Positions 16,464-53,304 of a stretch of 64,000 nt of DNA are shown here, one piece after another. A program made the position numbers and the translations under genes. The notes beneath the pieces were generated by a model, which worked only from the letters and a program-made list of their open reading frames with translations, had not been told where the DNA came from and searched no databases. How positions within the stretch are numbered: the stretch's first letter is position 1; each line of letters opens with the position of its first letter. Where the stretch lies: the sequence record HQ630627.1; one strand, 5' to 3'. The DNA comes from Pseudomonas phage PhiPA3.

Positions 16464-16482
16464 GTTTCAAATCTATATTACA
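16464..16482 (+). promoter_or_regulatory. Promoter-like motif copy 1 (GTTTCAAATCTATATTAC...TTTGAATTG)
   Basis: One of 4 near-identical AT-rich motifs, each 30-50 bp upstream of a plus-strand gene start. This copy is directly downstream of a terminator. Confidence 0.5.
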
Positions 16483-16512
16483 GATTTGAATTGAAACCAT
16501 TGAGGCTTTACC

Positions 16513-17046
16513 ATGGCACTGTCTGATTGCTATCAATGTTGGGAAACACCCTGTAAATGTGGTCATGACTACATGGATTGGACAGAGAAAGATCTGAAGG
16601 GGCAAATCGCAATGCTTCAAGGTGTTCTCCATTCCAAGCAAACCAAAGAAGCCAGCAAACTAGCTGGTGAGGAAATGGTGCGCTACGAGATCCGTGATCT
16701 CATTCCTGTCCGGGTGAAGTACTATCACGGCACCTCTGTAAAGGTACAGGCTCTGGATGCACCGACATACTCGATGTTTAAACACCGTCGTCTACAGGAA
16801 ACCTCTGGGCATTTCCAGTTCGATCCAGCTGATGGTAAATGCATATCTGGTTCCGGGGATAAACCCTGGGCTTTCTCGGTGTCGATCAAGATCGGCGAAG
16901 GACCTGACGATTGGACGTATTCGCTGAGTGCATTCAACACCAACGAATTCGCCGCGCCGCATTACGACGCTAATATTCGGGTAGAATTCATCATTCGGGA
17001 TCGTGTCGTGTACTTACCCAAATGTACCTTGCTGGAGCCGGAATGA
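16513..17046 (+). CDS. Hypothetical protein (177 aa)
   Basis: ORF with SD TGAGG. First gene after the promoter-like motif. Confidence 0.55.
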   Translation: MALSDCYQCWETPCKCGHDYMDWTEKDLKGQIAMLQGVLHSKQTKEASKLAGEEMVRYEIRDLIPVRVKYYHGTSVKVQALDAPTYSMFKHRRLQETSGHFQFDPADGKCISGSGDKPWAFSVSIKIGEGPDDWTYSLSAFNTNEFAAPHYDANIRVEFIIRDRVVYLPKCTLLEPE

Positions 17047-17405
17047 ATTCACAATTGATCATCTACATCGTGAATGGGGCATATACCCGAGAGCAGATTG
17101 AAGCGCACAGCAAAGTCCCTTTCGTGGAAAACCTATCCGAAGCGGCTGATCAACCAGTGGTGTTCACTCCATATACCCGAAGTAAGGTAATTAGGTACAG
17201 ACAAGAGAATAGAATCAATCTGTTTCTCACCCCGGACTTTGATAAGTCGATTTCGATGCTGCACGAGAACCATGGGCGTTACTTCCAGATAAGTCTCTTG
17301 GGTATCAAGGACTATAACGACAATTGCAATATGGTTCCACTGGGAATCGAACATCTGAATATGTTTGATGAAACATACGAACGGAAGATGAAGGAAAAAC
17401 GATGA
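17043..17405 (+). CDS. Paralog family member 1 (about 120 aa), hypothetical
   Basis: ATGA overlap with the upstream stop. N-terminus MNSQLIIYIVNGAYTREQIEAHSKVPFVENL is paralogous to the next two genes. Confidence 0.55.
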   Translation: MNSQLIIYIVNGAYTREQIEAHSKVPFVENLSEAADQPVVFTPYTRSKVIRYRQENRINLFLTPDFDKSISMLHENHGRYFQISLLGIKDYNDNCNMVPLGIEHLNMFDETYERKMKEKR

Positions 17406-17737
17406 CACTCAAAGCGATTGTCTACATCCACAACAATGCTTTCACTCCGGAGCAGATTGCTGAGTTCAGCAAAGTTCCGTACATGGAAGTCATTGACCTG
17501 AACACCACCCACCCCATGGTGTTCACTCCGTACAGCTCCGACCTGATCATCCAATACAAGAACACGATCCCGTACCAGATGATTGTTTCGGTGGACCCAA
17601 CCCCCGAGCAAGAAAAAGAGCTGCGGCAGCATACCCTGAAAGATGGGATTTACAGCCTGAGCTACGTCACGGGTGAGATCAATCAGGACCAGTTCCTGAT
17701 GTGGGACGCTGAATACGACAACATGGCGGCGGTGTAA
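17402..17737 (+). CDS. Paralog family member 2 (111 aa), hypothetical
   Basis: ATGA overlap. MTLKAIVYIHNNAFTPEQIAEFSKVPYMEV..PMVFTPY. Confidence 0.6.
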   Translation: MTLKAIVYIHNNAFTPEQIAEFSKVPYMEVIDLNTTHPMVFTPYSSDLIIQYKNTIPYQMIVSVDPTPEQEKELRQHTLKDGIYSLSYVTGEINQDQFLMWDAEYDNMAAV

Positions 17738-17739
17738 GT

Positions 17740-18096
17740 ATGAAACTCAAGGCAGTGCTGTATGTGGTCAATGACGCATTGACCAAAGAAGAGATCGTTG
17801 AGCACACGAAGATCCCATTCGTTGAGAACGTAGATCTGGAAACGGAACATCCGATCGTAGCTACGCCGTATAATGCGGAGAAAGTCAAATCTCACCAAAG
17901 CGTCGTACAGTATCAGTGCTTCATTGCCCACGAGTATGAAACCACTGAGAAACTGCTGAACGAGGAGCTGGGTGAACGTCCGCGTAATACCACTTATATC
18001 ACCTATCATGGGTCGGATGTACCTGGTAAACGTCTTAGCCCAGGTCACCTGGATGCCTGGAACTTTGAGTACGATCGTCTTCTGAATGAGAGTTGA
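17740..18096 (+). CDS. Paralog family member 3 (118 aa), hypothetical
   Basis: MKLKAVLYVVNDALTKEEIVEHTKIPFVENV..PIVATPY. Confidence 0.6.
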   Translation: MKLKAVLYVVNDALTKEEIVEHTKIPFVENVDLETEHPIVATPYNAEKVKSHQSVVQYQCFIAHEYETTEKLLNEELGERPRNTTYITYHGSDVPGKRLSPGHLDAWNFEYDRLLNES

Positions 18097-18119
18097 ACTA
18101 ACTCAACTCAGAGGCTACC

Positions 18120-18368
18120 ATGAAGGAATTCATTGTTCTCAACGAAGAAAAGATCCAATTCGAAATCAAGCGATTCCCTATTGAGAAGGCAGTAGAGGAA
18201 TCGGCCTGGCAGAACTTCGTTCACGATCTCAATAACGAGGTCGTGGAATACGAAGACTGGGAGGTGGAACAAGAGATCTACTTCGAAGAGGCAAGAGAAA
18301 TACTCACCAAGTTCGGGCAGAACTATATCCCAGAACCCGGTGAGTGCATCATCGCTGTACAACCATAA
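18120..18368 (+). CDS. Hypothetical small acidic protein (82 aa)
   Basis: ORF with SD AGAGGC. Confidence 0.45.
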   Translation: MKEFIVLNEEKIQFEIKRFPIEKAVEESAWQNFVHDLNNEVVEYEDWEVEQEIYFEEAREILTKFGQNYIPEPGECIIAVQP

Positions 18369-18398
18369 CACATCGATATAACACAAGGAATTACTCAC

Positions 18399-18809
18399 AT
18401 GTCCAAAGATCTGAAGAGCGTTGCTTTCGCGGAAGAACACCTGAAAGGCGTAGTCACCCTGGACGACGCCAATCGCCTGACCGGCCTCGATGACCTGTAC
18501 GAGAAGCACGTACTCGAACCCCTGGGTCTGACCCTGGAGATCGAGAACAAGCGTGAGAAGGCGGCCGCTGAGCTCTTCGCTGGCGTTACTTATCACGCCG
18601 GTGAACTCTTTGCCGGCGCCATGAAACAGGACCCGAACATCAGCGAACTGGCGTTCAGCTACCCCATGGGCAAACACGCCACCGCATCTGGCGTGTTCAA
18701 CCGTGAAGGCAGCCATGTCGTGCTGGCAATGACCAGCAAATGGGAAACCGCCGAAATGAAACGTGTGGTGGCCCACGTCAACACTCTGTTCGACGAAATC
18801 AGCAACTAA
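18399..18809 (+). CDS. Hypothetical protein (136 aa) in a GC-rich island (about 59% GC)
   Basis: ORF with SD AAGGAA. Strong G/C third-position codon bias unlike its neighbours. Confidence 0.55.
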   Translation: MSKDLKSVAFAEEHLKGVVTLDDANRLTGLDDLYEKHVLEPLGLTLEIENKREKAAAELFAGVTYHAGELFAGAMKQDPNISELAFSYPMGKHATASGVFNREGSHVVLAMTSKWETAEMKRVVAHVNTLFDEISN

Positions 18810-18816
18810 TGGTTGT

Positions 18817-18860
18817 GGGGTACCTTCGGGTACCCCATTACTCTTTTAATTTTTTGAAGG
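18817..18860 (+). terminator. Intrinsic terminator GGGGTACC-TTCG-GGTACCCC + T-rich tail
   Basis: 8-bp perfect stem with UUCG loop, followed by ATTACTCTTTTAATTTTTTG. Confidence 0.7.
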
Positions 18861-18867
18861 AAATACA

Positions 18868-19956
18868 ATGTTCAATCCGGCAGTTCAAAAGTTTGTTGTT
18901 CTGGAAGGTGATGAATTCTCTGGTAAGAGTTCGGTTCGCAAAGCGCTGGTCGAGCGACTGGAAGCTCTCAATGTCCCGCATCAAGTTTTCCGTGAACCGG
19001 GCGGTACTCCGTTCGGTGAAGAGATCCGTGAGATCCTGCTGCGCAAAGGCGATGAACAGATCAACCAAGTCTCCGACATTCTACTGCACCAAGCCTACCG
19101 TGCCCAGAATGTCCGTGAGATTATCAAGCCGGCTCTGGAAGCGGGTAAGCTGGTCCTGTCTGAACGCTTCATTATTTCCACTTACTGTCTGAACGTCGTA
19201 CCGTATCTGGAAACCAATCCAGAACTGCAAGACCTGTTCATGGGTACCCTGCCGTTCGTAACTCAAGGTATTCCAGAACCGATTACTTTCATGCTGCGTC
19301 TACCCGAAGAAGAGCGGATGAAGCGTGCTGACGGGCGCAAGCTCGATCGTTATGAAGATATGCCTGCCGATCACGTAGCTAAAGTTTCTAAGGCCTACCG
19401 TGAGCTGCAATTGCCAAGCATGGTTGAAGTTGATGCTACACAATCGATCGAAAAGATCGTTGACTTCATTCTGGACGTGCTGACCCAATTCGACGATCGA
19501 GAAACTCAACGGCTGGCGGACGAAGCGCAGCGTAAAGCACTAATGGCTGAGGCCGAAGTGCCGACCCCAGAAGAACCAGTTGCAAAAGGTTCCAGTGAAG
19601 CTGAAGAATCTCAGCCGTTTGATCTGGAAACCGCGCTGGAAGCCTACGCCCAGACCAATATCGTTCCTGAACTGTTCCCGCGTCTTACCCAAGAAGGCGA
19701 CGCTGAATATCAAGCCAATGCTATGAAGTACTGGCGCGAACTCGCTAAGAAAATCGTAGCCAAGATCTTCAAGCAAACCGGGGAGGACCAGTCGATCTTC
19801 CAACCTCACCGAGTCGGTCAACTGAACAGCGAGATCCATTCTCTGTTCCATTACCATGCACGCTTCGAGTACATGATGGATGAACTCCGAAAAGACGGAG
19901 CGTTCGGTGAGGACTCCACTGAGACTGGAGTCACGATTGAAGACCCTGCTGTCTGA
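18868..19956 (+). CDS. tmk: Thymidylate kinase with about 150-aa C-terminal extension
   Basis: P-loop VLEGDEFSGKSS, REPGGTPFGEEIR and a LID-like region. 362 aa against about 210 for typical Tmk. Confidence 0.8.
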   Translation: MFNPAVQKFVVLEGDEFSGKSSVRKALVERLEALNVPHQVFREPGGTPFGEEIREILLRKGDEQINQVSDILLHQAYRAQNVREIIKPALEAGKLVLSERFIISTYCLNVVPYLETNPELQDLFMGTLPFVTQGIPEPITFMLRLPEEERMKRADGRKLDRYEDMPADHVAKVSKAYRELQLPSMVEVDATQSIEKIVDFILDVLTQFDDRETQRLADEAQRKALMAEAEVPTPEEPVAKGSSEAEESQPFDLETALEAYAQTNIVPELFPRLTQEGDAEYQANAMKYWRELAKKIVAKIFKQTGEDQSIFQPHRVGQLNSEIHSLFHYHARFEYMMDELRKDGAFGEDSTETGVTIEDPAV

Positions 19957-19978
19957 ACCATACACAGCAGTACTTGCT

Positions 19979-20236
19979 ATGGATCGGCAAGATAACTATA
20001 AGCCAACGCCAATGACCACTAAACATGTTCGGCGGGACAATCTATGGCGCTTTATTAATGAAGAGTTCAAAGCCTTCGCTAATGGAGTGCCAGTTCGCGT
20101 CATCTTACAAGATGTAACCAAGCACAACGCCGTTGTGGCTAACTACTACCACCGCAGGGATTCGTACACAGTGAAGATTAGCTCTTTCCTGCAAAACTAC
20201 CTGCACGTCGATAAAAACATAGGAATCGTTAGCTAA
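19979..20236 (+). CDS. Hypothetical protein (85 aa)
   Basis: In-frame ATG at 19979. The track ORF starts earlier and overlaps tmk. Confidence 0.35.
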   Translation: MDRQDNYKPTPMTTKHVRRDNLWRFINEEFKAFANGVPVRVILQDVTKHNAVVANYYHRRDSYTVKISSFLQNYLHVDKNIGIVS

Positions 20237-20481
20237 TGAGTGACAAACTCTCTCTGAAGAAAAACGCCTCTGAATATACTCCGGCGACTGAACTAGGTGA
20301 TCTCACTCAGTACGTGGAGCGTACATTCGTTTGTAACCGTAACGGCCAAGTCACCGCAGTCAAATTGGCTGAAGTGAAGAACCGTAACGTGCGGCTCGAA
20401 TATCCGGGCGGTCGTGCTGACTCGTTCAGCCTTCCTCAGGAAAAGTTCCGTAAGCTCTATCAACTGGCACCCGCCGCTTGA
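20236..20481 (+). CDS. Hypothetical protein (81 aa)
   Basis: TAATG overlap with the upstream gene. Followed by a terminator. Confidence 0.45.
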   Translation: MSDKLSLKKNASEYTPATELGDLTQYVERTFVCNRNGQVTAVKLAEVKNRNVRLEYPGGRADSFSLPQEKFRKLYQLAPAA

Positions 20482-20487
20482 ATTTCA

Positions 20488-20518
20488 GGGAGCCTTCGGG
20501 CTCCCTTTCTATTTTGCT
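20488..20518 (+). terminator. Intrinsic terminator GGGAGCC-TTCG-GGCTCCC + TTTCTATTTTG
   Basis: Perfect 7-bp stem with UUCG loop and a T-rich tail. Confidence 0.7.
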
Positions 20519-20526
20519 AAGGAGTG

Positions 20527-21231
20527 ATGATGCGTTACATTCTACTTTGTTTGCTGGTACTGGCTGGCTCAGTATGGGGTAATCCGGTAAAAGACCCAGT
20601 GGTCTACAAACATGTACCGTATTGGTACACTGTCCAAACTCCAAAGGAAATCTCCTGTGTCTATACACCTGGAGCGAATATGGGGATGTGCGGTGTTCCC
20701 AATTATCCGGATGAAGTAACGGTATCTGTTACCCGTCGCTCTGATTACACCGAGGAACGCGCCTACAGGGTCGCAACGTATATCCAGTACGTCTGCATTG
20801 ACGGTGTGTGTTCCGATGCGTATGGAGCAATTGGAGGCGTTCTAGAGGGTGAAGTAGGCATCACGTACTGGGAGCTTCCTCGTGGTTACTATGTGACTAC
20901 CGAGCAAGGACAATACAAAGCTTACAAGCATGGGAACGGACCGCTGGCACAGCGATTTCCGATCCGGGATGTACTGCTCAACGGTGAATCCATCGATGGT
21001 TTTTACGTGTCGGTTGAACAAACACAAAATCTTTACAATGTACACTGCAATGTTCAAACACAACGCTGTGAATATCTGGGGCGTGAGCTGACGCTGTTGG
21101 AACTCGCTCAATTGGTACCCTTTGTGAAAACCGATATGTGCGATGCGTATCTGTGCTATATCAACAGCAACAAAGCCATGGTGGCTGGGATAAACCCTGA
21201 CCGTAAGGATATCTACGTAGGGCTACGATAA
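20527..21231 (+). CDS. Exported Cys-rich protein (signal peptide, about 9 Cys)
   Basis: N-terminus MMRYILLCLLVLAGSVWG then NPV looks like a Sec signal. Many Cys in the mature part. SD AAGGAG. Confidence 0.55.
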   Translation: MMRYILLCLLVLAGSVWGNPVKDPVVYKHVPYWYTVQTPKEISCVYTPGANMGMCGVPNYPDEVTVSVTRRSDYTEERAYRVATYIQYVCIDGVCSDAYGAIGGVLEGEVGITYWELPRGYYVTTEQGQYKAYKHGNGPLAQRFPIRDVLLNGESIDGFYVSVEQTQNLYNVHCNVQTQRCEYLGRELTLLELAQLVPFVKTDMCDAYLCYINSNKAMVAGINPDRKDIYVGLR

Positions 21232-21566
21232 TGGGTGAATTCTTTATTGACGACCGGCGTCAAATCGAGATGTACCTACTCAGTGAAATACAGGCTAAGG
21301 TCCGTGCATCTCATCTACGGGTAAAATGGTTAGCCGATTACAACGTGTTTGTCGAAACCGTCAGTGAAAGAATTGCTGTAGCCATTCTCATCACCAAAGA
21401 TAGTAAAATCTTGGTACTGACGTACGACATTCAACGTGATCCCACGATATGGAAGACATGGGATGACCATATCAACCCCGATACCGCCATTCACAAACAA
21501 CAATTCAATCGAAACGAGATTGATCCTGCTGCAACTGTGGTTATCTTGGAATTGATGTCCGTGTGA
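21231..21566 (+). CDS. Hypothetical protein (111 aa)
   Basis: TAATG overlap with the upstream gene. Confidence 0.45.
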   Translation: MGEFFIDDRRQIEMYLLSEIQAKVRASHLRVKWLADYNVFVETVSERIAVAILITKDSKILVLTYDIQRDPTIWKTWDDHINPDTAIHKQQFNRNEIDPAATVVILELMSV

Positions 21567-21574
21567 ACATAATA

Positions 21575-21620
21575 GCCCTCTCCCGAAGGAGAGGGCGTTA
21601 TGCCATTATTTTTTTACTTG
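21575..21620 (+). terminator. Intrinsic terminator GCCCTCTCC-CGAA-GGAGAGGGC + T tract
   Basis: 9-bp stem followed by TTATTTTTTTAC. Confidence 0.7.
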
Positions 21621-21652
21621 TTTCGTCACCTTATGTACCCAAGGAGAATTTA

Positions 21653-22012
21653 ATGATCAACTGGATCCGACGACACTATAAACGTAGACGCTGTAGTCGT
21701 GGTGAATTAATAGCTATTAATGAGTTGATACTCAAGGCAGCTCGACGACAGAATTATGACCTAGCTCACCTGATCTCTTACCTTGGTGATGGTAATGACC
21801 CAGTTGTACTAGACCAGATCAGAAATGAATTCTATAGTTTGTACCATCATTACAGATCGGTGTTTGATCCAGCTGACTTCGGTAAAAACTATCGAACCAA
21901 GTTAGGTCAGAACCTTATGGAAGCTGATCTAAAGATCGGTCAGTTTAAAGAACTGTGCGACAAGCATGGCATTGATTATTCCCACATTGTAGCAAACGAT
22001 ATTCCGTTCTAA
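21653..22012 (+). CDS. Hypothetical protein (about 119 aa)
   Basis: ATG at 21653 with AAGGAGAATTTA upstream. The track ORF 21563.. spans the terminator and is 5'-overextended. Confidence 0.5.
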   Translation: MINWIRRHYKRRRCSRGELIAINELILKAARRQNYDLAHLISYLGDGNDPVVLDQIRNEFYSLYHHYRSVFDPADFGKNYRTKLGQNLMEADLKIGQFKELCDKHGIDYSHIVANDIPF

Positions 22013-22021
22013 GGACACCCC

Positions 22022-22384
22022 ATGGATTTCCAAACTCTGTTTGAATTGTTCTTCCTTTTACTCGTTGGTCACGCTGTCTGTGATTACGCTTTACAAAACG
22101 ATTTCATGGCTATGGCCAAGAATCACACTACCGAATTGGGTAAGATATACTGGAAGTTCGTTTTGCCATCACATGGATTAATCCATGGGGGTTGGGTGTA
22201 TTTTGCTACAGGTTCAATTGCTTTTGGTGTACTGGAAACCATCATCCATTGCATCACCGATTACTTGAAGTGTGGTAATAAAATCAGCTTCAATACAGAT
22301 CAATGGATTCACATTGCTTGTAAAGTTCTTTGGGTTATCTTGGTTGGATTCCAGTTCGACTTCCTCGATTTGCTTCTTTTCTGA
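22022..22384 (+). CDS. Small integral membrane protein (120 aa, 3-4 TM segments)
   Basis: Hydrophobic segments FELFFLLLVGHAV, WVYFATGSIAFGVL and VLWVILVGF. Confidence 0.5.
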   Translation: MDFQTLFELFFLLLVGHAVCDYALQNDFMAMAKNHTTELGKIYWKFVLPSHGLIHGGWVYFATGSIAFGVLETIIHCITDYLKCGNKISFNTDQWIHIACKVLWVILVGFQFDFLDLLLF

Positions 22385-22389
22385 CTACG

Positions 22390-22412
22390 GCCTCCCCTCG
22401 GGGAGGCTCTAT
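22390..22412 (+). terminator. Intrinsic terminator GCCTCCCC-TC-GGGGAGGC + TCTATG
   Basis: GC stem directly after the stop. Confidence 0.55.
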
Positions 22413-22423
22413 GCCGCTATTCT

Positions 22424-22945
22424 ATGAATCAACGGCACTTTGGGGGACACATGCCTCTTACCTGTACCAAAGTCCCAGAGATAGACCAATTTGTAACCGA
22501 AGGGAAGCATATCGGCTATTTCGGAAAAGAGGACAATATAACCGACCTGCCGTCTGTGATTGGCGATTGGAATATCCGAGCGATCTATGATCGGGTGAAC
22601 CCCACAACAGGATACATCGTTGCGGTTCCTTCGAATACACGTACCCGCGTTATTTATAATACTGGGCGTGCAAATTGGCTGCAATCACTCGGCTACACTA
22701 GTAAACAGGCTGACTTGTATATCAGGGCGAGCACTATCGTGAATGGTCGTTGGGACCATCGCGTTGCTGAATTTGTACTGAAACATTTCCACATGGACGA
22801 TTACGTCATTGAGGAAGTAATACAGAGCGATCGCCCTAAGAAAGTTTGCCAAGAAAACAACATTAATACCAAACTCTCAGCGCGTAAGATTTTGACAGCC
22901 TGTCAGATACTTTACAACATGCGCTTTACTCTGGTAGGGGCCTAG
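22424..22945 (+). CDS. Hypothetical protein (173 aa; start may be 22451)
   Basis: ORF. Alternative ATG at 22451 has GGGGGA upstream. Confidence 0.45.
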   Translation: MNQRHFGGHMPLTCTKVPEIDQFVTEGKHIGYFGKEDNITDLPSVIGDWNIRAIYDRVNPTTGYIVAVPSNTRTRVIYNTGRANWLQSLGYTSKQADLYIRASTIVNGRWDHRVAEFVLKHFHMDDYVIEEVIQSDRPKKVCQENNINTKLSARKILTACQILYNMRFTLVGA

Positions 22946-34449: not shown

Positions 34450-34518
34450 TGCTTTTTCACCTTCAGGTTGCTGTTAGGATTTATCTACTCAATAAATGAA
34501 TACTATACCATTGGACCA

Positions 34519-34552
34519 TTAAATTTTATTTCAAATCTATATTACGTCTTTG
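34519..34552 (+). promoter_or_regulatory. Promoter-like motif copy 2 (TTAAATTTTATTTCAAATCTATATTACGTCTTTG)
   Basis: 34/34 identical to the copy at 53271-53304. Lies in the divergent intergenic region 29 bp upstream of the 34581 gene. Confidence 0.55.
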
Positions 34553-42294: not shown

Positions 42295-42873
42295 ATGTCT
42301 GTACTCTCTGATAAAACTATTGCCCGCCTGTGCAATGGTGACCTCCCGATGATCGAACCGTTCTTTGCGGAATCGATCAAGCACGCTGAGGATGGTCACC
42401 GCATTGCTTCGTACGGTGTGAGCAGTTACGGTTATGACCTTCGCGCTGCTGGGGAATTCAAACTCTTCAAAGGTGTCCCGGAAGGGCAGGCTGTAGACTA
42501 CAAGAACATCACCGAAGACATGTTCGAAACCGTAGTTGGCGATAAGATCATCATCCCACCGCACGGCTTTATCCTGACTCGTTCTGTGGAGTACGTCCGT
42601 ATTCCGCGTAACGTACTGGCACTGTGCATCGGTAAGTCGACTATCGCCCGTGTGGGCATCAACTGTCTGTGCACTCCGATCGAACCGGAATGGGAAGGCC
42701 ACATCACCTTCGAATTCCACAACACTCTCGATCAACCGAACACCTTCTATGCCAACGAAGGTGTACTGCAACTGGTCTTCATCGAAGGCGATGAGCCGTG
42801 CATTACTTCGTATGCCGATCGTGGCGGTAAGTACCAGGGTCAGGGCGCCAACATCGTTCTACCGAAAGTGTAA
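42295..42873 (+). CDS. dcd: dCTP deaminase (Dcd/dUTPase-fold family)
   Basis: SSYGYDLRAAG, GKSTIARVGI, IEPEWEGHITFEFHN. Length 192 aa. Confidence 0.8.
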   Translation: MSVLSDKTIARLCNGDLPMIEPFFAESIKHAEDGHRIASYGVSSYGYDLRAAGEFKLFKGVPEGQAVDYKNITEDMFETVVGDKIIIPPHGFILTRSVEYVRIPRNVLALCIGKSTIARVGINCLCTPIEPEWEGHITFEFHNTLDQPNTFYANEGVLQLVFIEGDEPCITSYADRGGKYQGQGANIVLPKV

Positions 42874-42905
42874 AAACTTTTAGATCTATATCACGCCTTT
42901 GAATT
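42873..42905 (+). promoter_or_regulatory. Promoter-like motif copy 3 (AAAAACTTTTAGATCTATATCACGCCTTTGAATTG)
   Basis: Shares the ATCTATAT-AC core and the downstream TTTGAATTG with the copy at 16464. 30 bp upstream of the 42935 gene. Confidence 0.45.
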
Positions 42906-46562: not shown

Positions 46563-46579
46563 CGTTAGGAGAATACAAG

Positions 46580-47677
46580 ATGCAAATGCTTAAAGATATC
46601 TACAACCATTTTCGTACGAAACGTGTTCCCACCATGACCACGTTCCAAACCTTATTCAAGAACGGTGCAACGGTCATCCGTATTATCGATGGGGAGAAAA
46701 AGTTCTGGGTGTACGGTACAGGTGAGTTGATTGGCGACACCTACGAACTGTACTACTATTACATGAACGAGGAATACGATCGCGTAAAAAATGTAGTTAT
46801 CACTCCGTTGGATACACGAGCTTTCTTTGACTTGGATCTGGTAAGTGATTGGCCCAATGCCAAGGTTCGGGTACAGCATAATAGAGACGCCCAGGATGAA
46901 TTCATCCTAAAAACTATCTGTGAACGTAGTTTCGAGAACTGGCTCGTTAGTTCTGCCTACGTGAAGGCGTGGAAGACTTGGTTGGAAAAACCGTTGTATG
47001 AGCGTATACCTCGTGGCCATGGGGTTAAAGTGGGTAGTATCAGTAATCGTGACCTGTTTGCTATGTCCAACGTGGCTGATGGCGCAGACTACATTACCCT
47101 GTACGACTGTAAGGGTGAAATGTTCCAGATGCCGTATGCCATACTGGACTCGGACTTCTGGCATCATCACGAGGATAGCTTGGGCTATCCAGAATACATT
47201 CCATTGACCGTACCGCCCAAGCGACAAGCTTTGCATCACGATGATCCTCGTCGTTGGGTTGTTATCGAGCGTGTAACGGATCATGGACTGGATTACGCTG
47301 TACGTGGGCGCTACGCCGGTGAAGCGCTCCTGAAACCTACGGAAATCTTCAACATCACCATCGAACTAGATGGTCCTAACCTTGCTGGCCGTGATATCAA
47401 CCTCCAAGACATGTTGTTATTGGCTATTCTGCGTGATCCGTCCATGCAAGAGTTGGATCAGTTCCGAGTGTATCTAAACAACATTCGGATCAAGCATGCT
47501 GGGTTTGATGCTATCTTCTCTGCGTGGACCACCCGCCAGAGAGATAACAGTGAATGGCGTAATACTCATCCGTACATCTTCATCAAAGATAATGGTCGAC
47601 CTCAGGTTATCCATGATGAACGGACAGTGTATGTACGGTACGTTAATGCTGAAAGCGTGGAGACTGAACTTGATTAA
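46580..47677 (+). CDS. Hypothetical protein (365 aa)
   Basis: SD TAGGAGAATACAAG-ATG. The track ORF is 5'-extended across the terminator. Confidence 0.55.
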   Translation: MQMLKDIYNHFRTKRVPTMTTFQTLFKNGATVIRIIDGEKKFWVYGTGELIGDTYELYYYYMNEEYDRVKNVVITPLDTRAFFDLDLVSDWPNAKVRVQHNRDAQDEFILKTICERSFENWLVSSAYVKAWKTWLEKPLYERIPRGHGVKVGSISNRDLFAMSNVADGADYITLYDCKGEMFQMPYAILDSDFWHHHEDSLGYPEYIPLTVPPKRQALHHDDPRRWVVIERVTDHGLDYAVRGRYAGEALLKPTEIFNITIELDGPNLAGRDINLQDMLLLAILRDPSMQELDQFRVYLNNIRIKHAGFDAIFSAWTTRQRDNSEWRNTHPYIFIKDNGRPQVIHDERTVYVRYVNAESVETELD

Positions 47678-48134
47678 ACGGCTATTGAAGAAACTCTTCA
47701 GGCCCGTTGATCCGTATGCTCACTACGAGAAGGAACTAAAGTTCCTCGCATCCTGTGATCCACATGGCCTGATTTTCAATCGTTGGATTGTCAAAGTTCC
47801 GTTGTGTGCTCTCCCCTACATGACACGAGTGGGGAAGATCTTCGGACCTGCTGTAGTGACATCCATCATCGCTAAGGTACATAACAGTCCGTTCCGTAAG
47901 GAGTTCTTTACGGACCTGGCCAACTGGTTAGATAGCCCAACGTCCATTGAAGTCTTCAACAGTGGGCATTACACTGATCGAGCTAAAGCCATCCATTTCG
48001 CTAGTTTCTTAGGCGGATACTGGAATGATTCTACTGACCAGTATTTATGGTACAGTCAATTGCGTTTTGGTTTGAGTTCGATGAGTGCGGCTAACGCTAA
48101 GATCCGTGTTGTTACGGAAGATCGTTTCGCATAA
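47646..48134 (+). CDS. Hypothetical protein (about 162 aa; start uncertain)
   Basis: ORF overlaps the 3' end of the previous gene. Followed by a hairpin. Confidence 0.4.
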   Translation: MLKAWRLNLIKRLLKKLFRPVDPYAHYEKELKFLASCDPHGLIFNRWIVKVPLCALPYMTRVGKIFGPAVVTSIIAKVHNSPFRKEFFTDLANWLDSPTSIEVFNSGHYTDRAKAIHFASFLGGYWNDSTDQYLWYSQLRFGLSSMSAANAKIRVVTEDRFA

Positions 48135-48139
48135 GACCT

Positions 48140-48170
48140 ACGCCCTTGACTTAGGTTGAGGGCGTTATGT
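48140..48170 (+). terminator. Terminator-like hairpin ACGCCCT-(11-nt loop)-AGGGCGT + TATGTCGC
   Basis: 7-bp stem with a larger loop; weaker than the others. Confidence 0.4.
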
Positions 48171-48186
48171 CGCCTAGGAGAATCCA

Positions 48187-48603
48187 ATGAACAAAAATAT
48201 AGCCATGGCGGTGATGCTCCCCACCAGCCCAAATTCAGGAAACTACGAAAGTATTCGTCGTTCCAATGCTGAACCTATGGATCTGGAGGAGTATTACACG
48301 CGCCTTCATGAAACTCCGGAAACCAGTTCTCTACCAGAGAGGTTTGCTGAGGTGATCAGACAGCGGTATTCGACTCGCCGTGGTAAACGTAAGTATTACC
48401 GTAAAGAAGACCTCAATGACTTTGCTATTTGGTTGGCAGACTTCCGTTATTTCCTAATTGAGGCATGTGACGGTAATGAAGATCTTCGCATTATCCGGCA
48501 ACAATTCAAGGATCGTATGAAGACCAGTGAGAGGCGTAACTCTTTCTTCAAAGTCACCCGGATGCAGCAATACTTTAAGGAAGCAAAAGGGGACATTCGA
48601 TGA
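48187..48603 (+). CDS. Hypothetical protein (138 aa)
   Basis: CCTAGGAGAATCCAATG initiation context. Confidence 0.55.
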   Translation: MNKNIAMAVMLPTSPNSGNYESIRRSNAEPMDLEEYYTRLHETPETSSLPERFAEVIRQRYSTRRGKRKYYRKEDLNDFAIWLADFRYFLIEACDGNEDLRIIRQQFKDRMKTSERRNSFFKVTRMQQYFKEAKGDIR

Positions 48604-49031
48604 ACAGTACTCAAAAGGTACTCATCATTGATGGCGGTTCACTAACCACACAAATGACAGCGGCGCTGATCGCGACCTGCAAGAGAGAGTGTATCGAGAT
48701 AGAGGAGTACAAACCCTGTGAAAAGGGTTATCTACCTTATCCCGATTTAAGCGGTCTTAACCGCAACCTTATACCGTACTTTGAAACCGAAGAGTCGGGT
48801 GAGTACGACCGTGTGCCTACGTCCACTTACGAGAAGAGACAATTCAAGAAGTCGGACAAACAGCAAGAAGCAGCTGCATTGTGGCTAAAGACAGCCTATG
48901 CTTTAGACCACGCTAAAACAAAAGAAGAACGACACCACATTGTGAAGGGATACAAAAGTCAAAGACGTATTTTGCGTCTACAACACGCTGGGGTGATACT
49001 CACTCGTCTCCACGAGTGTACTTTGAAATAG
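48600..49031 (+). CDS. Hypothetical protein (143 aa)
   Basis: ATGA overlap with the upstream stop. Confidence 0.5.
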   Translation: MNSTQKVLIIDGGSLTTQMTAALIATCKRECIEIEEYKPCEKGYLPYPDLSGLNRNLIPYFETEESGEYDRVPTSTYEKRQFKKSDKQQEAAALWLKTAYALDHAKTKEERHHIVKGYKSQRRILRLQHAGVILTRLHECTLK

Positions 49032-49074
49032 TGGGTACCGCGTTGGTACTTCACGTCTGGAGGTACTAACCCCA

Positions 49075-49395
49075 ATGGAACTCCTGATACCCCTTAAAGA
49101 AGACAACGACTTCCAGGACGATATCTTCAAGTATGGGGATCTTTCTGGTTGCATCAGCGTCGTCGATAAGAATGGTAATAGTGATTATGACTACCAAGTA
49201 TCAGTTGAGGAAGACCGTGACTTCCCGAATGAATGGACGGTTGTAATCCAACAAGCCGTTCCGGATACCGCTAAGTTGAATCTTAAATTCAAGCGATATT
49301 GGTTTAAGTACAACTCTGTGTCTGGTCATTTTGCGGGCGAACCATTCTTCTACTCAGGATTGAGTAAAAGGCTAATCCGCGTCGAAGTGCCGTAA
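49075..49395 (+). CDS. Hypothetical protein (106 aa)
   Basis: ORF followed by a terminator. Confidence 0.45.
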   Translation: MELLIPLKEDNDFQDDIFKYGDLSGCISVVDKNGNSDYDYQVSVEEDRDFPNEWTVVIQQAVPDTAKLNLKFKRYWFKYNSVSGHFAGEPFFYSGLSKRLIRVEVP

Positions 49396-49403
49396 GGCAT
49401 AAT

Positions 49404-49435
49404 AGCCTCCCTTCGGGGAGGCTTTATATTTCCCC
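49404..49435 (+). terminator. Intrinsic terminator AGCCTCCC-TTCG-GGGAGGCT + TTATATTTCCCC
   Basis: 8-bp perfect stem with UUCG loop. Confidence 0.7.
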
Positions 49436-49526
49436 TAGGTGAATCCAATGCCCCATCGTAAAGTTCTCAACAATATCATGGAGCTATAGTAGAACAAGGT
49501 ATGAGGTTATAACCAACAGGACTCTT

Positions 49527-49922
49527 ATGAGTACACGATTACACACCACCATTTTTAACTTACCGTATCACTACAAAGGCAAGTATTCAGAACGCTTTAA
49601 AGAGATGCGGGAGGTTGGTGTAGAAGCTCTGGAATTTACCGACATGGACATTGAGGGAATTATCAATGGTGATACCCAACGTGATCATGATGAGCTTAAG
49701 TTTTACAAAGAGACCTGGCTTGAGAAACCCAGGCACATCTGTTTCACAATCTTTGAGAAACGGCGCAACCGTATAGTTGTTGAACTCCATGTAGAACTCG
49801 ATAAGAAACGAGTCTACTGGGTAAAACCCCGCATGAGATGGGGACTGCCAAACATGATCGTCAAACTCAAAGTGATCCAAGACCTGTCTAAACAACAATG
49901 GATTGGATCAATGCAGGTGTAA
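49527..49922 (+). CDS. Hypothetical protein (131 aa)
   Basis: ORF with weak SD. Confidence 0.4.
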   Translation: MSTRLHTTIFNLPYHYKGKYSERFKEMREVGVEALEFTDMDIEGIINGDTQRDHDELKFYKETWLEKPRHICFTIFEKRRNRIVVELHVELDKKRVYWVKPRMRWGLPNMIVKLKVIQDLSKQQWIGSMQV

Positions 49923-50344
49923 CCATGACAGTACGAGTCGTAATTCCGTTGTACAAGGGCGTTAGAGGGAACTTGAAACAGTTCTTTTATTCTAGGAATG
50001 GGGAGTTTGATAAGCGATTCGTCTGGTGGATTACGCCGATCGCGTGCTATATGCCAGATGGTTTAGCTGTGGGCGAACTGAAAACTGTACCTACAGTTAG
50101 TCGCTATGAAGGGCAGATCGAATTCGAGGTATGGGATAAGCTGCGTAGAGCTACACCAAAGTTAGTAGCCAAGGTAAAGATCGACGCAGATGACGATACT
50201 TATGAAGTCGAGCTTGAAGACTATTACATGACTCAACGACTACAATTGGAATTTAATCTCCATCAGTCAAACACCGTACATGAGTCTCAAGCGTTCAGGA
50301 ACAAGACTCACCATGGCGATTGGAGCTACAGAGACAAGGTCTAA
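49898..50344 (+). CDS. Hypothetical protein (148 aa; alternative start 49925)
   Basis: ORF only. Confidence 0.4.
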   Translation: MDWINAGVTMTVRVVIPLYKGVRGNLKQFFYSRNGEFDKRFVWWITPIACYMPDGLAVGELKTVPTVSRYEGQIEFEVWDKLRRATPKLVAKVKIDADDDTYEVELEDYYMTQRLQLEFNLHQSNTVHESQAFRNKTHHGDWSYRDKV

Positions 50345-50640
50345 TGCGGTTGAAGAAGACACTTAAGCGTAGATGGCGCCGCTGGCGTCGAGAACACCGG
50401 GGACGGGTGTTGGAATCCATTTCAAGTTCCCTACCTTTTTGTCAACTAGAACCTAAGGCAAAGCGTATGTCAGAAAAACAAAAGAACGCCGAACGCATCG
50501 CTGACTTGGAACAACTGCTAGATACCCAAGCCGAGCAGATGACGCAGCTGTGCACCAAGCTTAGTGAGCAAGGGAAACTGCTTGCATCCATGGGTGAGCG
50601 TCTAGCTAAGCTAGAAAACGAATGCCGACTCGGACAGTAA
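50344..50640 (+). CDS. Small protein with Arg-rich N-terminus and C-terminal coiled coil (about 98 aa; alternative start 50467)
   Basis: TAATG overlap with the upstream stop. C-terminal heptad-like ERIADLEQLLDTQAEQMTQLCTKLSEQGKLLASMGERLAKLENE. Confidence 0.4.
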   Translation: MRLKKTLKRRWRRWRREHRGRVLESISSSLPFCQLEPKAKRMSEKQKNAERIADLEQLLDTQAEQMTQLCTKLSEQGKLLASMGERLAKLENECRLGQ

Positions 50641-50642
50641 TT

Positions 50643-50672
50643 GGGAGTCCCTTTGCGGGACTCCATTTATCC
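50643..50672 (+). terminator. Intrinsic terminator GGAGTCCC-TTTG-CGGGACTCC + ATTTATCCC
   Basis: 8-bp stem. Confidence 0.65.
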
Positions 50673-50685
50673 CTCTGGAGGAATT

Positions 50686-51378
50686 ATGATTTACATTGGC
50701 GTCATTGATTGGAAGAAGTTTACCTTTTTCTGTGCGGAACTGAAAACTCCGCAAATCAGCAAGTTCGTTGCCGAGAAAGGTAGTGATCTGTATAAAGCCT
50801 TCGACCAATTCATTCGCGACAATATCGAGTGGATTCCACAGACGGCTTATAATCGGGAAACTCAAGTCATTGTACGTGTAAGCTGCCGACCAAACGATGT
50901 GATTGAGAGCAGCTACAACTACATCGTCAACTCCGACCTGTACGGTTATAAAGGTCGTGGTGTAGTTACCGAAAACCCTGCACTGGCGATGGTTGAACGC
51001 TTCACTGAACGGATGGAAGAATCTTTCGAGGTGAAGCTGGTTGATGAAGCTAATCCGTATCTCTTCGGTTTGGACCTAGCATGGCGTCCGGAAGCTCAAG
51101 AGTGCATCATTCGTTACACGGCTACTCTGAATATCGAGAAGGCCTGGGTGTTTAGGGCTACTGTTTATAATCAGGCCATCCCGGAAAATGAAAACGCGCC
51201 TTTCGCGATGCTCCGTAAGAAAGAACTAGGTGCACCAGATACAGATTGGGAAGACGTACGCGAACTGACTGAAGCGGAGTTCAATGAAGAATTCGCCAGT
51301 CCTACCTCGGGTGAAGTCGATCGTGTTATTGACGATATTCCGGCAGAGATTCGTCCGGAAGACGTAAACCCAAAATAA
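50686..51378 (+). CDS. Hypothetical protein (230 aa)
   Basis: SD TGGAGGAATT-ATG. Confidence 0.55.
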   Translation: MIYIGVIDWKKFTFFCAELKTPQISKFVAEKGSDLYKAFDQFIRDNIEWIPQTAYNRETQVIVRVSCRPNDVIESSYNYIVNSDLYGYKGRGVVTENPALAMVERFTERMEESFEVKLVDEANPYLFGLDLAWRPEAQECIIRYTATLNIEKAWVFRATVYNQAIPENENAPFAMLRKKELGAPDTDWEDVRELTEAEFNEEFASPTSGEVDRVIDDIPAEIRPEDVNPK

Positions 51379-51384
51379 CTTCAG

Positions 51385-51412
51385 TGGAGCCTTCGGGCTC
51401 CCTTTTATTTCG
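51385..51412 (+). terminator. Intrinsic terminator GGAGCC-TTCG-GGCTCC + CTTTTATTTCG
   Basis: Stem plus T tract. Confidence 0.7.
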
Positions 51413-51427
51413 ACAAAAGGAAAATGT

Positions 51428-52655
51428 AATGAGCTTTTTCAAAACCCTTAAAGATATTTTCTTCCCTGCTACGTTTTCAGAACGTGAAGAACTCAGTCGC
51501 GCCGAGATCCGGGCACAACACATTGCGGCTGAGGCAGCTGCTCAACAGGTATCGGTGGATGATCGTACCCGTCGAGAAAAAGCCGCATTAGAAGCACTCA
51601 ACGGCGACCTCCCTGTTGAAGTTTGCTATGGTGATGACATTATTGGCGTGTTCACCAAAGATGGTTATTTTGGAGCATATGACCGTAATACTTGGAAAGA
51701 AGTGGCTAGGGTAAAGGGCCTGAAGGAAGTTCCTTTCCAAGTACGCGATGTATTCATGACTCGAATCAGCGTAGTCAAGAAGGACACCACCCATACCCGT
51801 CAGCGCCCATCGGAACTCGAAGATGGATGGAAGCGAATCGTTAGCGCCTTTGATCACCTCGGTGTTAAAGTGGAAGTCGGCAAAAGAAAGGATGATATCC
51901 ATTGGATCCATCGCAGCTGGGAACACCTTAGTGCCAGAGAGCACTATAGCTTTATTCCCCAGGGAGCGGGTGTCCCTTGCCGTCGTAACGGTCTTTGGTT
52001 TGTGACGGGTTATGACACCGCGAGTAAAGAGCTGACCGTCGTGCGTTTAGAAGACGGGGTGATTGTGGACAAACGTACTCCGGCCGCTTGGGTATTCCAG
52101 GAACTGGAGTTCCAGAAAGATGAACTTGCCGATACATTGATTTGGTTCGATAACCCCATCAAGAAACTCAATGGCTCGATGGCCACTTACCTGATCTCGC
52201 ATCATGATGTTCGGGTTAGTCTGTATCCCATCGTAGATACCCAACTAAATAAACGGGCAGCATTCAGCTATTGGCGTAACCAGGGTTTGATGCGGTATCG
52301 CTTTGACTACGACGTAATTATCAACTTCAACAACCTCGGTATCATTCCTGGCGTAGATATCAGCGTGATGAAAGCAGAAGAGCTGATCGCTATGATTAAG
52401 CATTACATTCCTGCTACCGGGAATTGGATTGCAAATGGTGAAGTATGCCTGGAGCGCGTGAAGGTCAGTATCGATGGAGAGGTGTTCGATGGGGATCTGA
52501 GTGAAGCACTGAAAAGCAAGGATGTTGTACTGGATATCGATCTGGATCACGCTGAACTGACCGAAGAACAACAGCAAGTCATAGATCACCTACGTCGCGA
52601 AGAGTTCGATAAACAGGCTGTAACTTATACCTACCGCGGTAAGGTACTGGAGTAA
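51428..52655 (+). CDS. Hypothetical protein (409 aa)
   Basis: SD AAAGGAAAATGTA-ATG. The track ORF is 5'-extended across the terminator. Confidence 0.55.
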
Positions 52656-52719
52656 TAATGGATAAAAGGTATCGTTCCTACCTTTATATTCTGACCTAAC
52701 AACCAAAGGTACCAACGTG

Positions 52720-53088
52720 ATGCAATGTTTTACACACGTAACGCGACTTCTGGTTGTAGCGGCCCTTGTGGTACTGCCGTTGCAAGCAAAGTCAGCTGAG
52801 GTGGTTGATACGGATGGGATTTGTCATATGACTGCCCTCCTGGATCAGGCTACTGCCGAAGCACGGGATCGAGGTGATACCGTGAATCAGCAGCAGGGCG
52901 CCCTCCTCGCCCTTCAAAAAGGGTACGGCGTGAAGAACAAAGATAACGTTCTTTACAGCGTCTTACCGAAAGCGATACAAGAAGTCCGTAGTGTCTATCA
53001 GAAGCGACAGCCTCCGAAAGAAGCTTATGTGACTGCTTATAACGCCTGTATGTCAGACCGTTTCAACCGGATGGTTGCAGCGCAGTAG
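52720..53088 (+). CDS. Exported small protein (signal peptide; 122 aa)
   Basis: MQCFTHVTRLLVVAALVVLPLQA then KSAEV looks like a Sec signal. Confidence 0.5.
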   Translation: MQCFTHVTRLLVVAALVVLPLQAKSAEVVDTDGICHMTALLDQATAEARDRGDTVNQQQGALLALQKGYGVKNKDNVLYSVLPKAIQEVRSVYQKRQPPKEAYVTAYNACMSDRFNRMVAAQ

Positions 53089-53097
53089 TATCATACT

Positions 53098-53122
53098 GCC
53101 TCCCTGCGGGGAGGCTTTATGT
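53098..53122 (+). terminator. Intrinsic terminator GCCTCCC-TGC-GGGGAGGC + TTTATG
   Basis: Perfect stem directly after the stop. Confidence 0.65.
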
Positions 53123-53227
53123 CATCTTAGAGAAAAGTTACCCTCCATTGAAATAACATGCACGCGTAGCAAGGAACAAGCTTTCGGCCATTCGTTCGAA
53201 GCTGGGCTGGATGTAAGCGGTATAAAG

Positions 53228-53268
53228 CGGGAGCCTTCGGGCTCCCTGCTTTTCCTTTTCTTTTTTGC
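53228..53268 (+). terminator. Intrinsic terminator GGGAGCC-TTCG-GGCTCCC + long T tract (TGCTTTTCCTTTTCTTTTTTG)
   Basis: Strongest T tract in the window. Sits about 105 nt after the previous terminator. Confidence 0.75.
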
Positions 53269-53270
53269 CA

Positions 53271-53304
53271 TTAAATTTTATTTCAAATCTATATTACGTC
53301 TTTG
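53271..53304 (+). promoter_or_regulatory. Promoter-like motif copy 4 (TTAAATTTTATTTCAAATCTATATTACGTCTTTG)
   Basis: Identical to the copy at 34519. 31 bp upstream of the 53336 gene. Confidence 0.55.

What the first reader, a model, noticed from the sequence alone, without database searches (positions are those of the whole stretch)
16464..53304. Four copies of a conserved AT-rich promoter-like element (core ATCTATAT(T/C)AC), two of them identical over 34 bp
The copies are TTAAATTTTATTTCAAATCTATATTACGTCTTTG at 34519 and 53271, AAAGTTTCAAATCTATATTACAGATTTGAATTG at 16461, and AAAAACTTTTAGATCTATATCACGCCTTTGAATTG at 42873. Each lies 30-50 bp upstream of a plus-strand gene, either just after a terminator or in a divergent intergenic region. 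From memory, phiKZ-like early promoters recognised by the virion RNAP have a TATATTAC-type core. These would then be vRNAP early promoters. Weaker look-alikes lie upstream of the 18399 and 52717 starts: ATCGATATAAC at 18375 and TTTATATTCTGAC at 52684.
Basis: partly seen in the sequence, partly recalled or inferred. Interest (0 to 1): 0.6.

Follow-up and report, generated by a model that had tools for sequence, protein, structure and literature searches.

The report
phiKZ-type early promoters, new jumbo phage
The four repeated AT-rich elements are very probably early-gene promoters read by the RNA polymerase that a phiKZ-like giant phage carries in its virion; this promoter class is already well described in related phages, so the finding is correct but ordinary.

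Summary
ATCTATAT(T/C)AC occurs four times, all on the + strand, against 0.03 expected. Two copies are identical over 37 bp, not 34. The window comes from an unsampled phiKZ-like jumbo phage (Chimalliviridae). It is syntenic with phiKZ gp178–gp235 and encodes virion-RNAP subunit homologs.

A weight matrix trained only on phiKZ early-promoter sites picks out exactly these four sites: 35.6, 30.9, 20.5 and 9.8 bits (13.6 if T/C is allowed at box position 6). The next best site scores 3.8, and the shuffled maximum is 10.7–11.9.

The sites share the published three-block architecture: CAYTAAA near −31, TTTnARA near −20, TATATTAC at −14 to −7, then N5-TG. All four are intergenic and co-oriented with the downstream gene (p about 1e-7). 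None resembles a σ70 promoter. Each lies at a position where phiKZ, PS119XW or 201phi2-1 carries the same motif. Site 1 sits 56–57 bp after the gp184-homolog stop codon in all four phages.

Predicted TSSs are the G at 16488, 34552, 42901 and 53304, which is an inference. The two "weaker look-alikes" are not supported. Transcription itself is untested.

Verdict: interpretation supported; a new member of a known kind; low interest.

The parts
16452..16488 (+). Early promoter 1. It has CCATT at about -36, TTTCAAATC at about -20 and a TATATTAC box at 16474-16481. The predicted +1 is the G at 16488. It drives 16513-17046 and five further small genes, up to the terminator at 18815-18838.
   Evidence: It scores 35.6 bits with the phiKZ-only matrix. 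It sits 57 bp after the stop codon of the gp184 homolog, the same distance as in PS119XW, 201phi2-1 and phiKZ. No sigma70-like site was found.
16428..16445 (+). Hairpin terminator (GCCCAGC-TCAG-GCTGGGC, then TTTAT) that ends the gp184-homolog unit just before promoter 1.
   Evidence: Found. The same GGGCTTTAT-to-promoter junction occurs in PS119XW, 201phi2-1, phiKZ and the metagenomic relative L129.
34516..34552 (+). Early promoter 2, a 37-bp block identical to promoter 4. The TATATTAC box is at 34538-34545 and the predicted +1 is the G at 34552. It lies in the divergent region between four minus-strand paralogs and the operon 34581-35815 (an unknown 275-aa protein plus the gp244 homolog). A terminator follows at 35822-35839, with the gp245 homolog just beyond it.
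   Evidence: It scores 20.5 bits. It is 29/37 identical to phiKZ 237287, the motif upstream of gp242-245. PS119XW has ATCTATATTAC in the same divergent region.
42865..42901 (+). Early promoter 3, with the box variant TATATCAC at 42887-42894. The predicted +1 is the G at 42901. It lies between the dCTP deaminase gene (gp214 homolog) and the gp216 homolog (42935-43417). The unit probably runs through the NAD-dependent DNA ligase gene to the terminator at 49404-49423.
   Evidence: It scores 9.8 bits with the strict matrix and 13.6 bits when T/C is allowed at box position 6, against a shuffled maximum of 11.9. phiKZ has the same TATATCAC variant upstream of gp216 (220781), and PS119XW has TATATTAC between its dCTP deaminase gene and gp251.
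53268..53304 (+). Early promoter 4, a 37-bp block identical to promoter 2. The TATATTAC box is at 53290-53297 and the predicted +1 is the G at 53304. It drives 53336-54124 and the genes downstream.
   Evidence: It scores 30.9 bits. It is 32/37 identical to phiKZ 228592, which also lies downstream of gp229, while the gp229 proteins are only 45% identical.
53229..53246 (+). Intrinsic terminator (GGGAGCC-TTCG-GGCTCCC followed by a T-rich tail) immediately upstream of promoter 4.
972..5920 (-). Genes for two virion-RNAP subunit homologs: phiKZ gp178 (972-4262) and gp180 (4268-5920). This is the enzyme inferred to read the promoters.
   Evidence: They match PHROG RNA polymerase beta subunit families with E = 0 and 3.6e-224. 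They are 58% and 75% identical at the amino-acid level to phiKZ gp178 and gp180.

Best explanation
The four elements are early promoters of a phiKZ-like, nucleus-forming (Chimalliviridae) jumbo phage. The multisubunit virion RNA polymerase is injected with the DNA, and two of its subunit genes lie in this window. It is inferred to recognise a roughly 37-bp, three-block promoter: CCATTAAA near -31, TTTCAAATC near -20 and TATAT(T/C)AC at -14 to -7. It is inferred to start about 7 nt after the box, at the G of a conserved TG, which predicts +1 at 16488, 34552, 42901 and 53304. It would then transcribe short operons of mostly small proteins of unknown function, plus a DNA ligase, without using the host RNA polymerase.

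Shown here: the sequence match, the positions, and their conservation across relatives. Inferred: the start sites, the timing and the identity of the polymerase.
For: 1. Non-random motif. There are 4 hits against 0.03 expected. The extended 24-mer is unique to these four sites.
2. Independent recognition. A matrix built only from 26 phiKZ sites scores the window sites at 35.6, 30.9, 20.5 and 9.8 bits (13.6 when T/C is allowed). The next best site scores 3.8, and the shuffled maximum is 10.7-11.9.
3. Same architecture as published. PMC8244752 describes an extended -10 box plus a T-rich block upstream of -19. PMC11512511 describes conservation at -10, -20 and -30. PMC7598289 describes a roughly 10-nt AT-rich element centred at -10 and attributed to the vRNAP. 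PMC7058600 Table 2 gives the consensus strings.
4. Correct genomic background. The window is syntenic with phiKZ gp178-gp235 and encodes gp178 and gp180 homologs.
5. Position. All four sites are intergenic, co-oriented with the next gene and 25-34 nt (from the predicted +1) upstream of a start codon with a Shine-Dalgarno sequence. Only 1.8% of strand-positions qualify, so 4 of 4 has p about 1e-7.
6. Orthologous positions. Site 1 lies 56-57 bp after the gp184-homolog stop codon in the window, PS119XW, 201phi2-1 and phiKZ. Site 3 lies between the dCTP deaminase gene and the gp216 homolog in PS119XW and phiKZ. Site 4 lies after the gp229 homolog in phiKZ (32/37 identical) and weakly in PS119XW. 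Site 2 lies ahead of the gp244/245 operon.
7. Whole-genome check in phiKZ. The same matrix finds 30 sites, all on the + strand. For 27 of them an ORF starts 6-73 nt after the predicted +1. This agrees with the published 28-32 early promoters (PMC8244752).
8. No sigma70 architecture. No -35/-10 pair was found at any site.
9. The 37-bp identity ends exactly at the predicted +1, and the downstream proteins are unrelated.
Against: No transcript data exist for this phage, so the start sites, the early timing and vRNAP dependence are inferred by homology. The supplementary TSS tables of the phiKZ and 201phi2-1 studies were not available, so I could not confirm that the specific orthologous phiKZ sites (199217, 220781, 228592, 237287) are among the mapped ones. 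Only PHIKZ054 is named in the text. Site 3 carries a T-to-C change in an otherwise invariant box position and scores near the noise level with the strict matrix. Only 64 kb of the genome could be examined. To my knowledge, promoter-specific initiation by purified vRNAP in vitro has not been reported, and none of the papers read here reports it.
Confidence: 0.9

Rival explanations
1. They are host sigma70-type promoters. The TATATT part of the box would serve as a -10 hexamer, and the host RNA polymerase would use them right after infection.
For: TATATT matches TATAAT at 5 of 6 positions (read from the sequence). The upstream region is AT-rich and resembles an UP element.
Against: No -35/-10 pair with 16-18 nt spacing was found at any of the four sites. 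Sigma70-like matches across the window are about half the shuffled expectation. The conserved blocks at -20 and -31 and the TG at +1 are those of phiKZ early promoters, not sigma70 promoters. phiKZ infection is rifampicin-insensitive and independent of host RNAP (PMC13282480, PMC8244752).
Confidence: 0.03
2. They are middle or late promoters used by the non-virion RNAP, rather than early promoters.
For: The window contains many structural and DNA-metabolism genes. In 201phi2-1 some promoter assignments did not fit the expected timing (PMC11512511).
Against: Published middle promoters have a TACT motif near -22 preceded by an A-run. Late promoters have only TATG at the start site (PMC8244752, PMC7598289). 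The window sites have neither, and they match the early motif over about 37 bp. The structural genes in the window, such as the gp181, gp182 and gp201-203 homologs, lack the motif.
Confidence: 0.04
3. The repeats are remnants of recent duplication or of a mobile cassette, not elements maintained for function.
For: Two copies are 100% identical over 37 bp.
Against: The identity stops abruptly on both sides. The flanks and the downstream proteins are unrelated (E = 1.6). The same motif is kept at orthologous positions in phages whose neighbouring proteins are only 30-60% identical. All copies have the same orientation and the same distance to a start codon.
Confidence: 0.02

Closest known systems
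phiKZ early promoters, mapped by primer extension/5'RACE (Ceyssens 2014, as cited in the papers read), dRNA-seq (PMC8244752) and ONT-cappable-seq (PMC10914365). About 28-32 sites.
   Same: The TATATTAC box is the same. So are the TTTnARA block about 2-3 nt upstream, the CAYTAAA block about 30 nt upstream of the start, and the TG 5 nt after the box. The sites are intergenic and co-oriented, with a 25-70 nt leader, and often sit directly after a terminator. They are up to 32/37 nt identical, and three to four of the window sites lie at orthologous gene junctions.
   Different: The window phage is a different genus-level lineage: 48% GC against 37%, and 38% identity in the gp181 protein. All four window sites have ATC before the box and TTTG at the start, whereas phiKZ uses several sub-types (cag, atc, att, ata). 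There is no experimental mapping for the window phage.
201phi2-1 (Serwervirus) early promoters, consensus TTAWTAVAA_HYWTTTRARR_BTATATTACDWHDGTG (PMC7058600 Table 2; ONT-cappable-seq in PMC11512511).
   Same: The three-block layout and the box are the same. A promoter lies at the same distance after the gp184 homolog (gp280), at L128 17840.
   Different: 201phi2-1 prefers GTG at the start where the window has TTG. No gp216 homolog follows its dCTP deaminase gene, so site 3 has no counterpart there.
Pseudomonas phage PS119XW / PA1C group (Pawinskivirus), the closest sequenced relatives.
   Same: The synteny is the closest found, with 51-71% protein identity. The motif is present at all four corresponding junctions. 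ATCTATATTAC or TATATCAC boxes are shared.
   Different: The counterparts of sites 2 and 4 in PS119XW are degenerate (weak upstream context; TACATCAT box). The T/C variant of the box sits at a different promoter: site 1 in PS119XW and site 3 in the window. I did not look for any published promoter annotation of this group.
OBP / EL / N1M2 predicted early promoters (TTTYARRYAKATATTAT; PMC7058600).
   Same: They share the TTTYARR block followed by an AT-rich box at the same spacing.
   Different: The box ends in ATTAT rather than ATTAC, and these phages are more distant.

Membership tests
phiKZ-type (Chimalliviridae) vRNAP early promoter | The genome is a phiKZ-like jumbo phage that encodes virion multisubunit RNAP subunits. 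| tested here: met
   gp178 and gp180 homologs lie at 972-5920. Synteny with phiKZ gp178-gp235 and best hits to Pseudomonas jumbo phages.
phiKZ-type (Chimalliviridae) vRNAP early promoter | A conserved AT-rich box TATATTAC centred near -10. | tested here: met
   Three sites have TATATTAC and one has TATATCAC. The TATATCAC variant also occurs in phiKZ (4166, 220781) and PS119XW within full promoter context.
phiKZ-type (Chimalliviridae) vRNAP early promoter | Additional conserved blocks near -20 (T-rich, TTTnARA) and near -30, at fixed spacing. | tested here: met
   The 50-nt matrix trained on phiKZ alone gives 20-36 bits for three sites and 9.8-13.6 bits for the fourth. The shuffled maximum is 10.7-11.9.
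phiKZ-type (Chimalliviridae) vRNAP early promoter | Intergenic, co-oriented with the downstream gene, and a few tens of nt upstream of it. | tested here: met
   All 4 sites qualify, p about 1e-7, with predicted leaders of 25-34 nt. phiKZ shows the same pattern at 27 of 30 sites by ORF calling.
phiKZ-type (Chimalliviridae) vRNAP early promoter | Location conserved relative to homologous genes in related phages. | tested here: met
   Site 1 is conserved in 4 phages plus L129; site 3 in 2 relatives; site 4 in 1 relative strongly and 1 weakly; site 2 in 2 relatives with weaker context or looser correspondence.
phiKZ-type (Chimalliviridae) vRNAP early promoter | Primary transcripts start about 7 nt after the box, appear within minutes of infection, and are rifampicin-resistant and vRNAP-dependent. 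| not testable with these tools
   No transcript data exist for this phage. The +1 positions 16488, 34552, 42901 and 53304 are predictions.
Bacterial sigma70 promoter | A TTGACA-like -35 hexamer 16-18 nt upstream of a TATAAT-like -10 hexamer. | tested here: not met
   0 matches at each of the four sites.
phiKZ middle/late (nvRNAP) promoter | Middle: TACT near -22 after an A-run. Late: TATG overlapping the start site. | tested here: not met
   Neither motif is present in the four sites as read. Definitions are from PMC8244752 and PMC7598289.

The most novel reading that the evidence does not exclude
The early promoters may fall into sub-types that differ in the -20 and -30 blocks. The same sub-type appears at orthologous junctions in different genera: window sites 2 and 4 match phiKZ 237287 and 228592 (the 'CATTAAATTTT..TTT.A.AT' type), and site 1 matches phiKZ 199217. 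The exact 37-bp identity from -36 to +1 could mark the full recognition footprint. This would imply graded or sub-staged early expression set by the promoter sub-type. It could also imply a co-injected specificity factor that reads the upstream blocks. The perfect 9-bp dyad at site 1 could be an operator for shutting off early transcription.
Probability: 0.1. Interest if true: 0.5.

Novelty: new member of a known kind. Interest (0 to 1): 0.2.

Why it matters
The result gives a ready annotation of four early transcription units, with predicted start sites, in an unsampled lineage of nucleus-forming jumbo phages. It also shows how strongly the vRNAP promoter is conserved. The promoter is up to 86% identical over 37 bp, and sits at the same gene junctions, in phages whose neighbouring proteins are only 30-60% identical. 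This is useful for genome annotation and for building expression cassettes for jumbo-phage engineering. It does not reveal a new mechanism.

Tried and rejected
1. Source genome. A near-identity DNA search of the phage collection found no match. An exact-protein look-up found nothing on record. The genome-wide test could therefore not be run on this phage.
2. Viral-contig scan with the 17-mer. It returned about 120 mostly unrelated chance hits and was uninformative.
3. Specific 24-mer scans. In viral contigs only L129, a true 310-kb relative, and L130 matched. In metagenomes there were 14 single hits, none of them a relative by tblastn.
4. The search for related loci with single proteins. It gave 0 relatives for one query and 1 for the other.
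5. Supplementary TSS tables of the phiKZ and 201phi2-1 papers, and Ceyssens 2014 itself, are not held.
7. The sigma70 reading was rejected.
8. The duplication reading was rejected.
9. Rfam and tRNA scans of the window found nothing.
Full report
**Observation.** The core ATCTATAT(T/C)AC occurs exactly four times in the 64-kb window, all on the + strand, at 16471, 34535, 42884 and 53287. Dinucleotide-preserving shuffles give 0.03 on average. The 34-mer reported for 34519 and 53271 is identical. The identity actually spans 37 bp (34516-34552 = 53268-53304), and the flanks on both sides are unrelated. An extended 24-mer built from the four copies, TTTYARATCTATATYACNNNTTTG, matches only these sites. 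The next best positions have 4-5 mismatches, which is what shuffles give.

**What the window is.** No near-identical DNA exists in the phage collection. The 2323-aa ORF at 5973-12944 is the giant tail-associated protein of phiKZ-like phages (phiKZ gp181). It is 51% identical to the PS119XW/PA1C group, 42-43% to 201phi2-1 and Phabio, and 38% to phiKZ-like phages. ORFs at 972-4262 and 4268-5920 are homologs of the virion RNAP subunits gp178 and gp180. Gene order follows phiKZ gp178-gp235, including gp182, gp184, gp188, gp214 dCTP deaminase, gp216, gp229 and gp235 thymidylate synthase. The window therefore comes from an unsampled Chimalliviridae jumbo phage with 48% GC.

**Comparison with known early promoters.** Published consensus strings are phiKZ TATATTAC, 201phi2-1 TTAWTAVAA_HYWTTTRARR_BTATATTACDWHDGTG and OBP ...TTTYARRYAKATATTAT (PMC7058600, Table 2). 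dRNA-seq in phiKZ describes an extended -10 box plus a T-rich block upstream of -19 at 32 start sites, with leaders mostly 31-40 nt (PMC8244752). ONT-cappable-seq in 201phi2-1 describes conservation at -10, -20 and -30 (PMC11512511). A review attributes these roughly 10-nt AT-rich elements centred at -10 to the virion RNAP (PMC7598289).

I fetched the whole phiKZ genome and listed its TATATTAC sites. About two dozen share a long context, for example gcattaaattttttttgaaatcTATATTACatatttg at 228592. The window has gccattaaattttatttcaaatcTATATTACgtctttg. A 50-nt weight matrix trained only on 26 phiKZ sites scores the window sites at 35.6 (16474), 30.9 (53290), 20.5 (34538) and 9.8 bits (42887, box TATATCAC). 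The fifth best position in the window scores 3.8, and shuffled windows reach at most 10.7. If box position 6 may be T or C, the fourth site scores 13.6 against a shuffled maximum of 11.9. This relaxation is justified, because phiKZ and PS119XW carry TATATCAC boxes in full promoter context.

**Position.** Only 6.3% of the window is non-coding. Only 1.8% of strand-positions are both non-coding and within 60 nt upstream of a co-oriented start codon. All four sites qualify, which gives p of about 1e-7. Sites 1 and 4 follow GC-rich TTCG- or TCAG-loop hairpin terminators. Site 2 lies in a divergent intergenic region. Site 3 starts 14 bp after the stop codon of the dCTP deaminase gene, with no terminator. 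None of the sites has a sigma70-type -35/-10 pair.

**Orthologous positions.** Site 1: the box starts 57 bp after the stop codon of the gp184 homolog in the window. The distance is 56 bp in PS119XW, 57 bp in 201phi2-1 and 56 bp in phiKZ. Each time the box follows a hairpin ending in GGGCTTTAT. A 310-kb metagenomic relative, L129, shows the same junction.

Site 3: the motif lies between the dCTP deaminase gene and the gp216 homolog in PS119XW (41119 in L127). In phiKZ it lies upstream of gp216 (220781), and phiKZ carries the same TATATCAC variant there.

Site 4 lies after the gp229 homolog. phiKZ has its motif at 228592, two small genes further on. It is 32/37 identical to the window block, although the gp229 proteins are only 45% identical. 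PS119XW has a degenerate copy.

Site 2 lies ahead of the operon that contains the gp244 and gp245 homologs. phiKZ has a 29/37-identical motif upstream of gp242-245, and PS119XW has ATCTATATTAC in the same divergent region.

In the complete phiKZ genome the matrix finds 30 sites, all on the + strand. For 27 of them an ATG-start ORF begins 6-73 nt after the predicted start. This agrees with the published 28-32 early promoters. The matrix was trained on those sites, so only their placement is independent evidence.

**Mechanism and predicted start sites.** The published logos place the box at about -10. phiKZ and the window share a TG 5 nt after the box. From these I infer that transcription starts at that G: 16488, 34552, 42901 and 53304. 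The predicted leaders are 25, 29, 34 and 32 nt, each with a Shine-Dalgarno sequence. The 37-bp identity between sites 2 and 4 ends exactly at this predicted +1. The two downstream proteins are unrelated (E = 1.6). This pattern fits selection on a promoter footprint from about -36 to +1 better than a recent duplication.

Using the strong terminators, the predicted early units are as follows. The first runs from 16488 to 18838 and holds six small genes, including two phrog_26097 paralogs and the gp186 homolog. The second runs from 34552 to 35839. The third runs from 42901 to 49423 and holds the gp216 homolog and the NAD-dependent DNA ligase gene. The fourth runs from 53304 onward. Most products have no known function, which is typical of early genes in this family. 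The polymerase identity, the timing and the start sites are inferred by homology and were not measured.

**Rivals.** A sigma70 promoter is rejected. It has no -35/-10 architecture, sigma70-like sites are depleted across the window, and transcription in this family is independent of the host RNAP (PMC13282480). A middle or late nvRNAP promoter is rejected, because TACT/A-run and TATG are both absent (PMC8244752, PMC7598289). A duplication remnant is rejected.

**Novelty and score.** This is the known phiKZ-type early promoter, found in a phage lineage not present in the collections searched. The conservation of regulatory-element positions relative to homologous genes has already been reported for 201phi2-1 against phiKZ (PMC11512511). 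The finding is correct and useful for annotation, but it is not surprising. It is a new member of a known kind, with interest of about 0.2.

Noticed in passing
window 12900-32800 and 34400-54300: Sigma70-like promoter matches are about half the shuffled expectation: 13 against 26.6±4.9, and 14 against 27.7±6.2. This fits a phage that does not use the host RNA polymerase.
   Followed up: no
window 1-4262 (-): The vRNAP gp178 homolog (972-4262) is 1096 aa long. It aligns only to residues 1-1074 of PS119XW gp212, which is 1453 aa. Nothing in window 1-971 matches the C-terminal ~380 aa of phiKZ gp178 or PS119XW gp212. The subunit may be truncated here, or its C-terminal part may be encoded elsewhere.
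   Followed up: partly
window 24447-27617 (+): The gp203-like SNF2 helicase, a virion protein in phiKZ, carries an in-frame insertion of about 330 aa (roughly residues 174-502). The insertion contains a LAGLIDADG domain and looks like an intein. It is shared with PS119XW gp231 and absent from phiKZ gp203 and 201phi2-1 gp300.
   Followed up: partly
window 24447-30494 (+): The gp203-gp202-gp201 module lies on the + strand here. In phiKZ, PS119XW and 201phi2-1 it lies on the opposite strand relative to the same neighbours. This indicates a local inversion.
   Followed up: no
window 30535-34449 (-): Four tandem paralogous genes of about 320 aa each encode proteins with virion-structural-protein-like PHROG hits. 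PS119XW gp232-235 has the same arrangement. They are transcribed divergently from promoter 2.
   Followed up: no
window 53098-53246 (+): Two strong terminators (53098-53115 and 53229-53246) are separated by 113 nt with no ORF. phiKZ has two small genes (gp230 and gp230.1) at this place. The spacer may be a remnant or a small non-coding unit.
   Followed up: no
window 16466-16490 (+): Promoter 1 contains a perfect 9-bp inverted repeat, TTCAAATCT / AGATTTGAA, flanking ATATTAC. The repeat is absent from the orthologous promoters of PS119XW, 201phi2-1 and phiKZ. It may be chance or a site-specific operator.
   Followed up: partly
window 16428-53246, several sites: The strong terminators share a recurring form: a GC-rich 7-10 bp stem, a TTCG tetraloop and a (C)TTTAT tail. 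Examples lie at 18815-18838, 20487-20506, 35822-35839, 49404-49423, 51386-51401 and 53098-53115. This recalls the conserved terminator motif reported for phiKZ and 201phi2-1 (PMC11512511).
   Followed up: no
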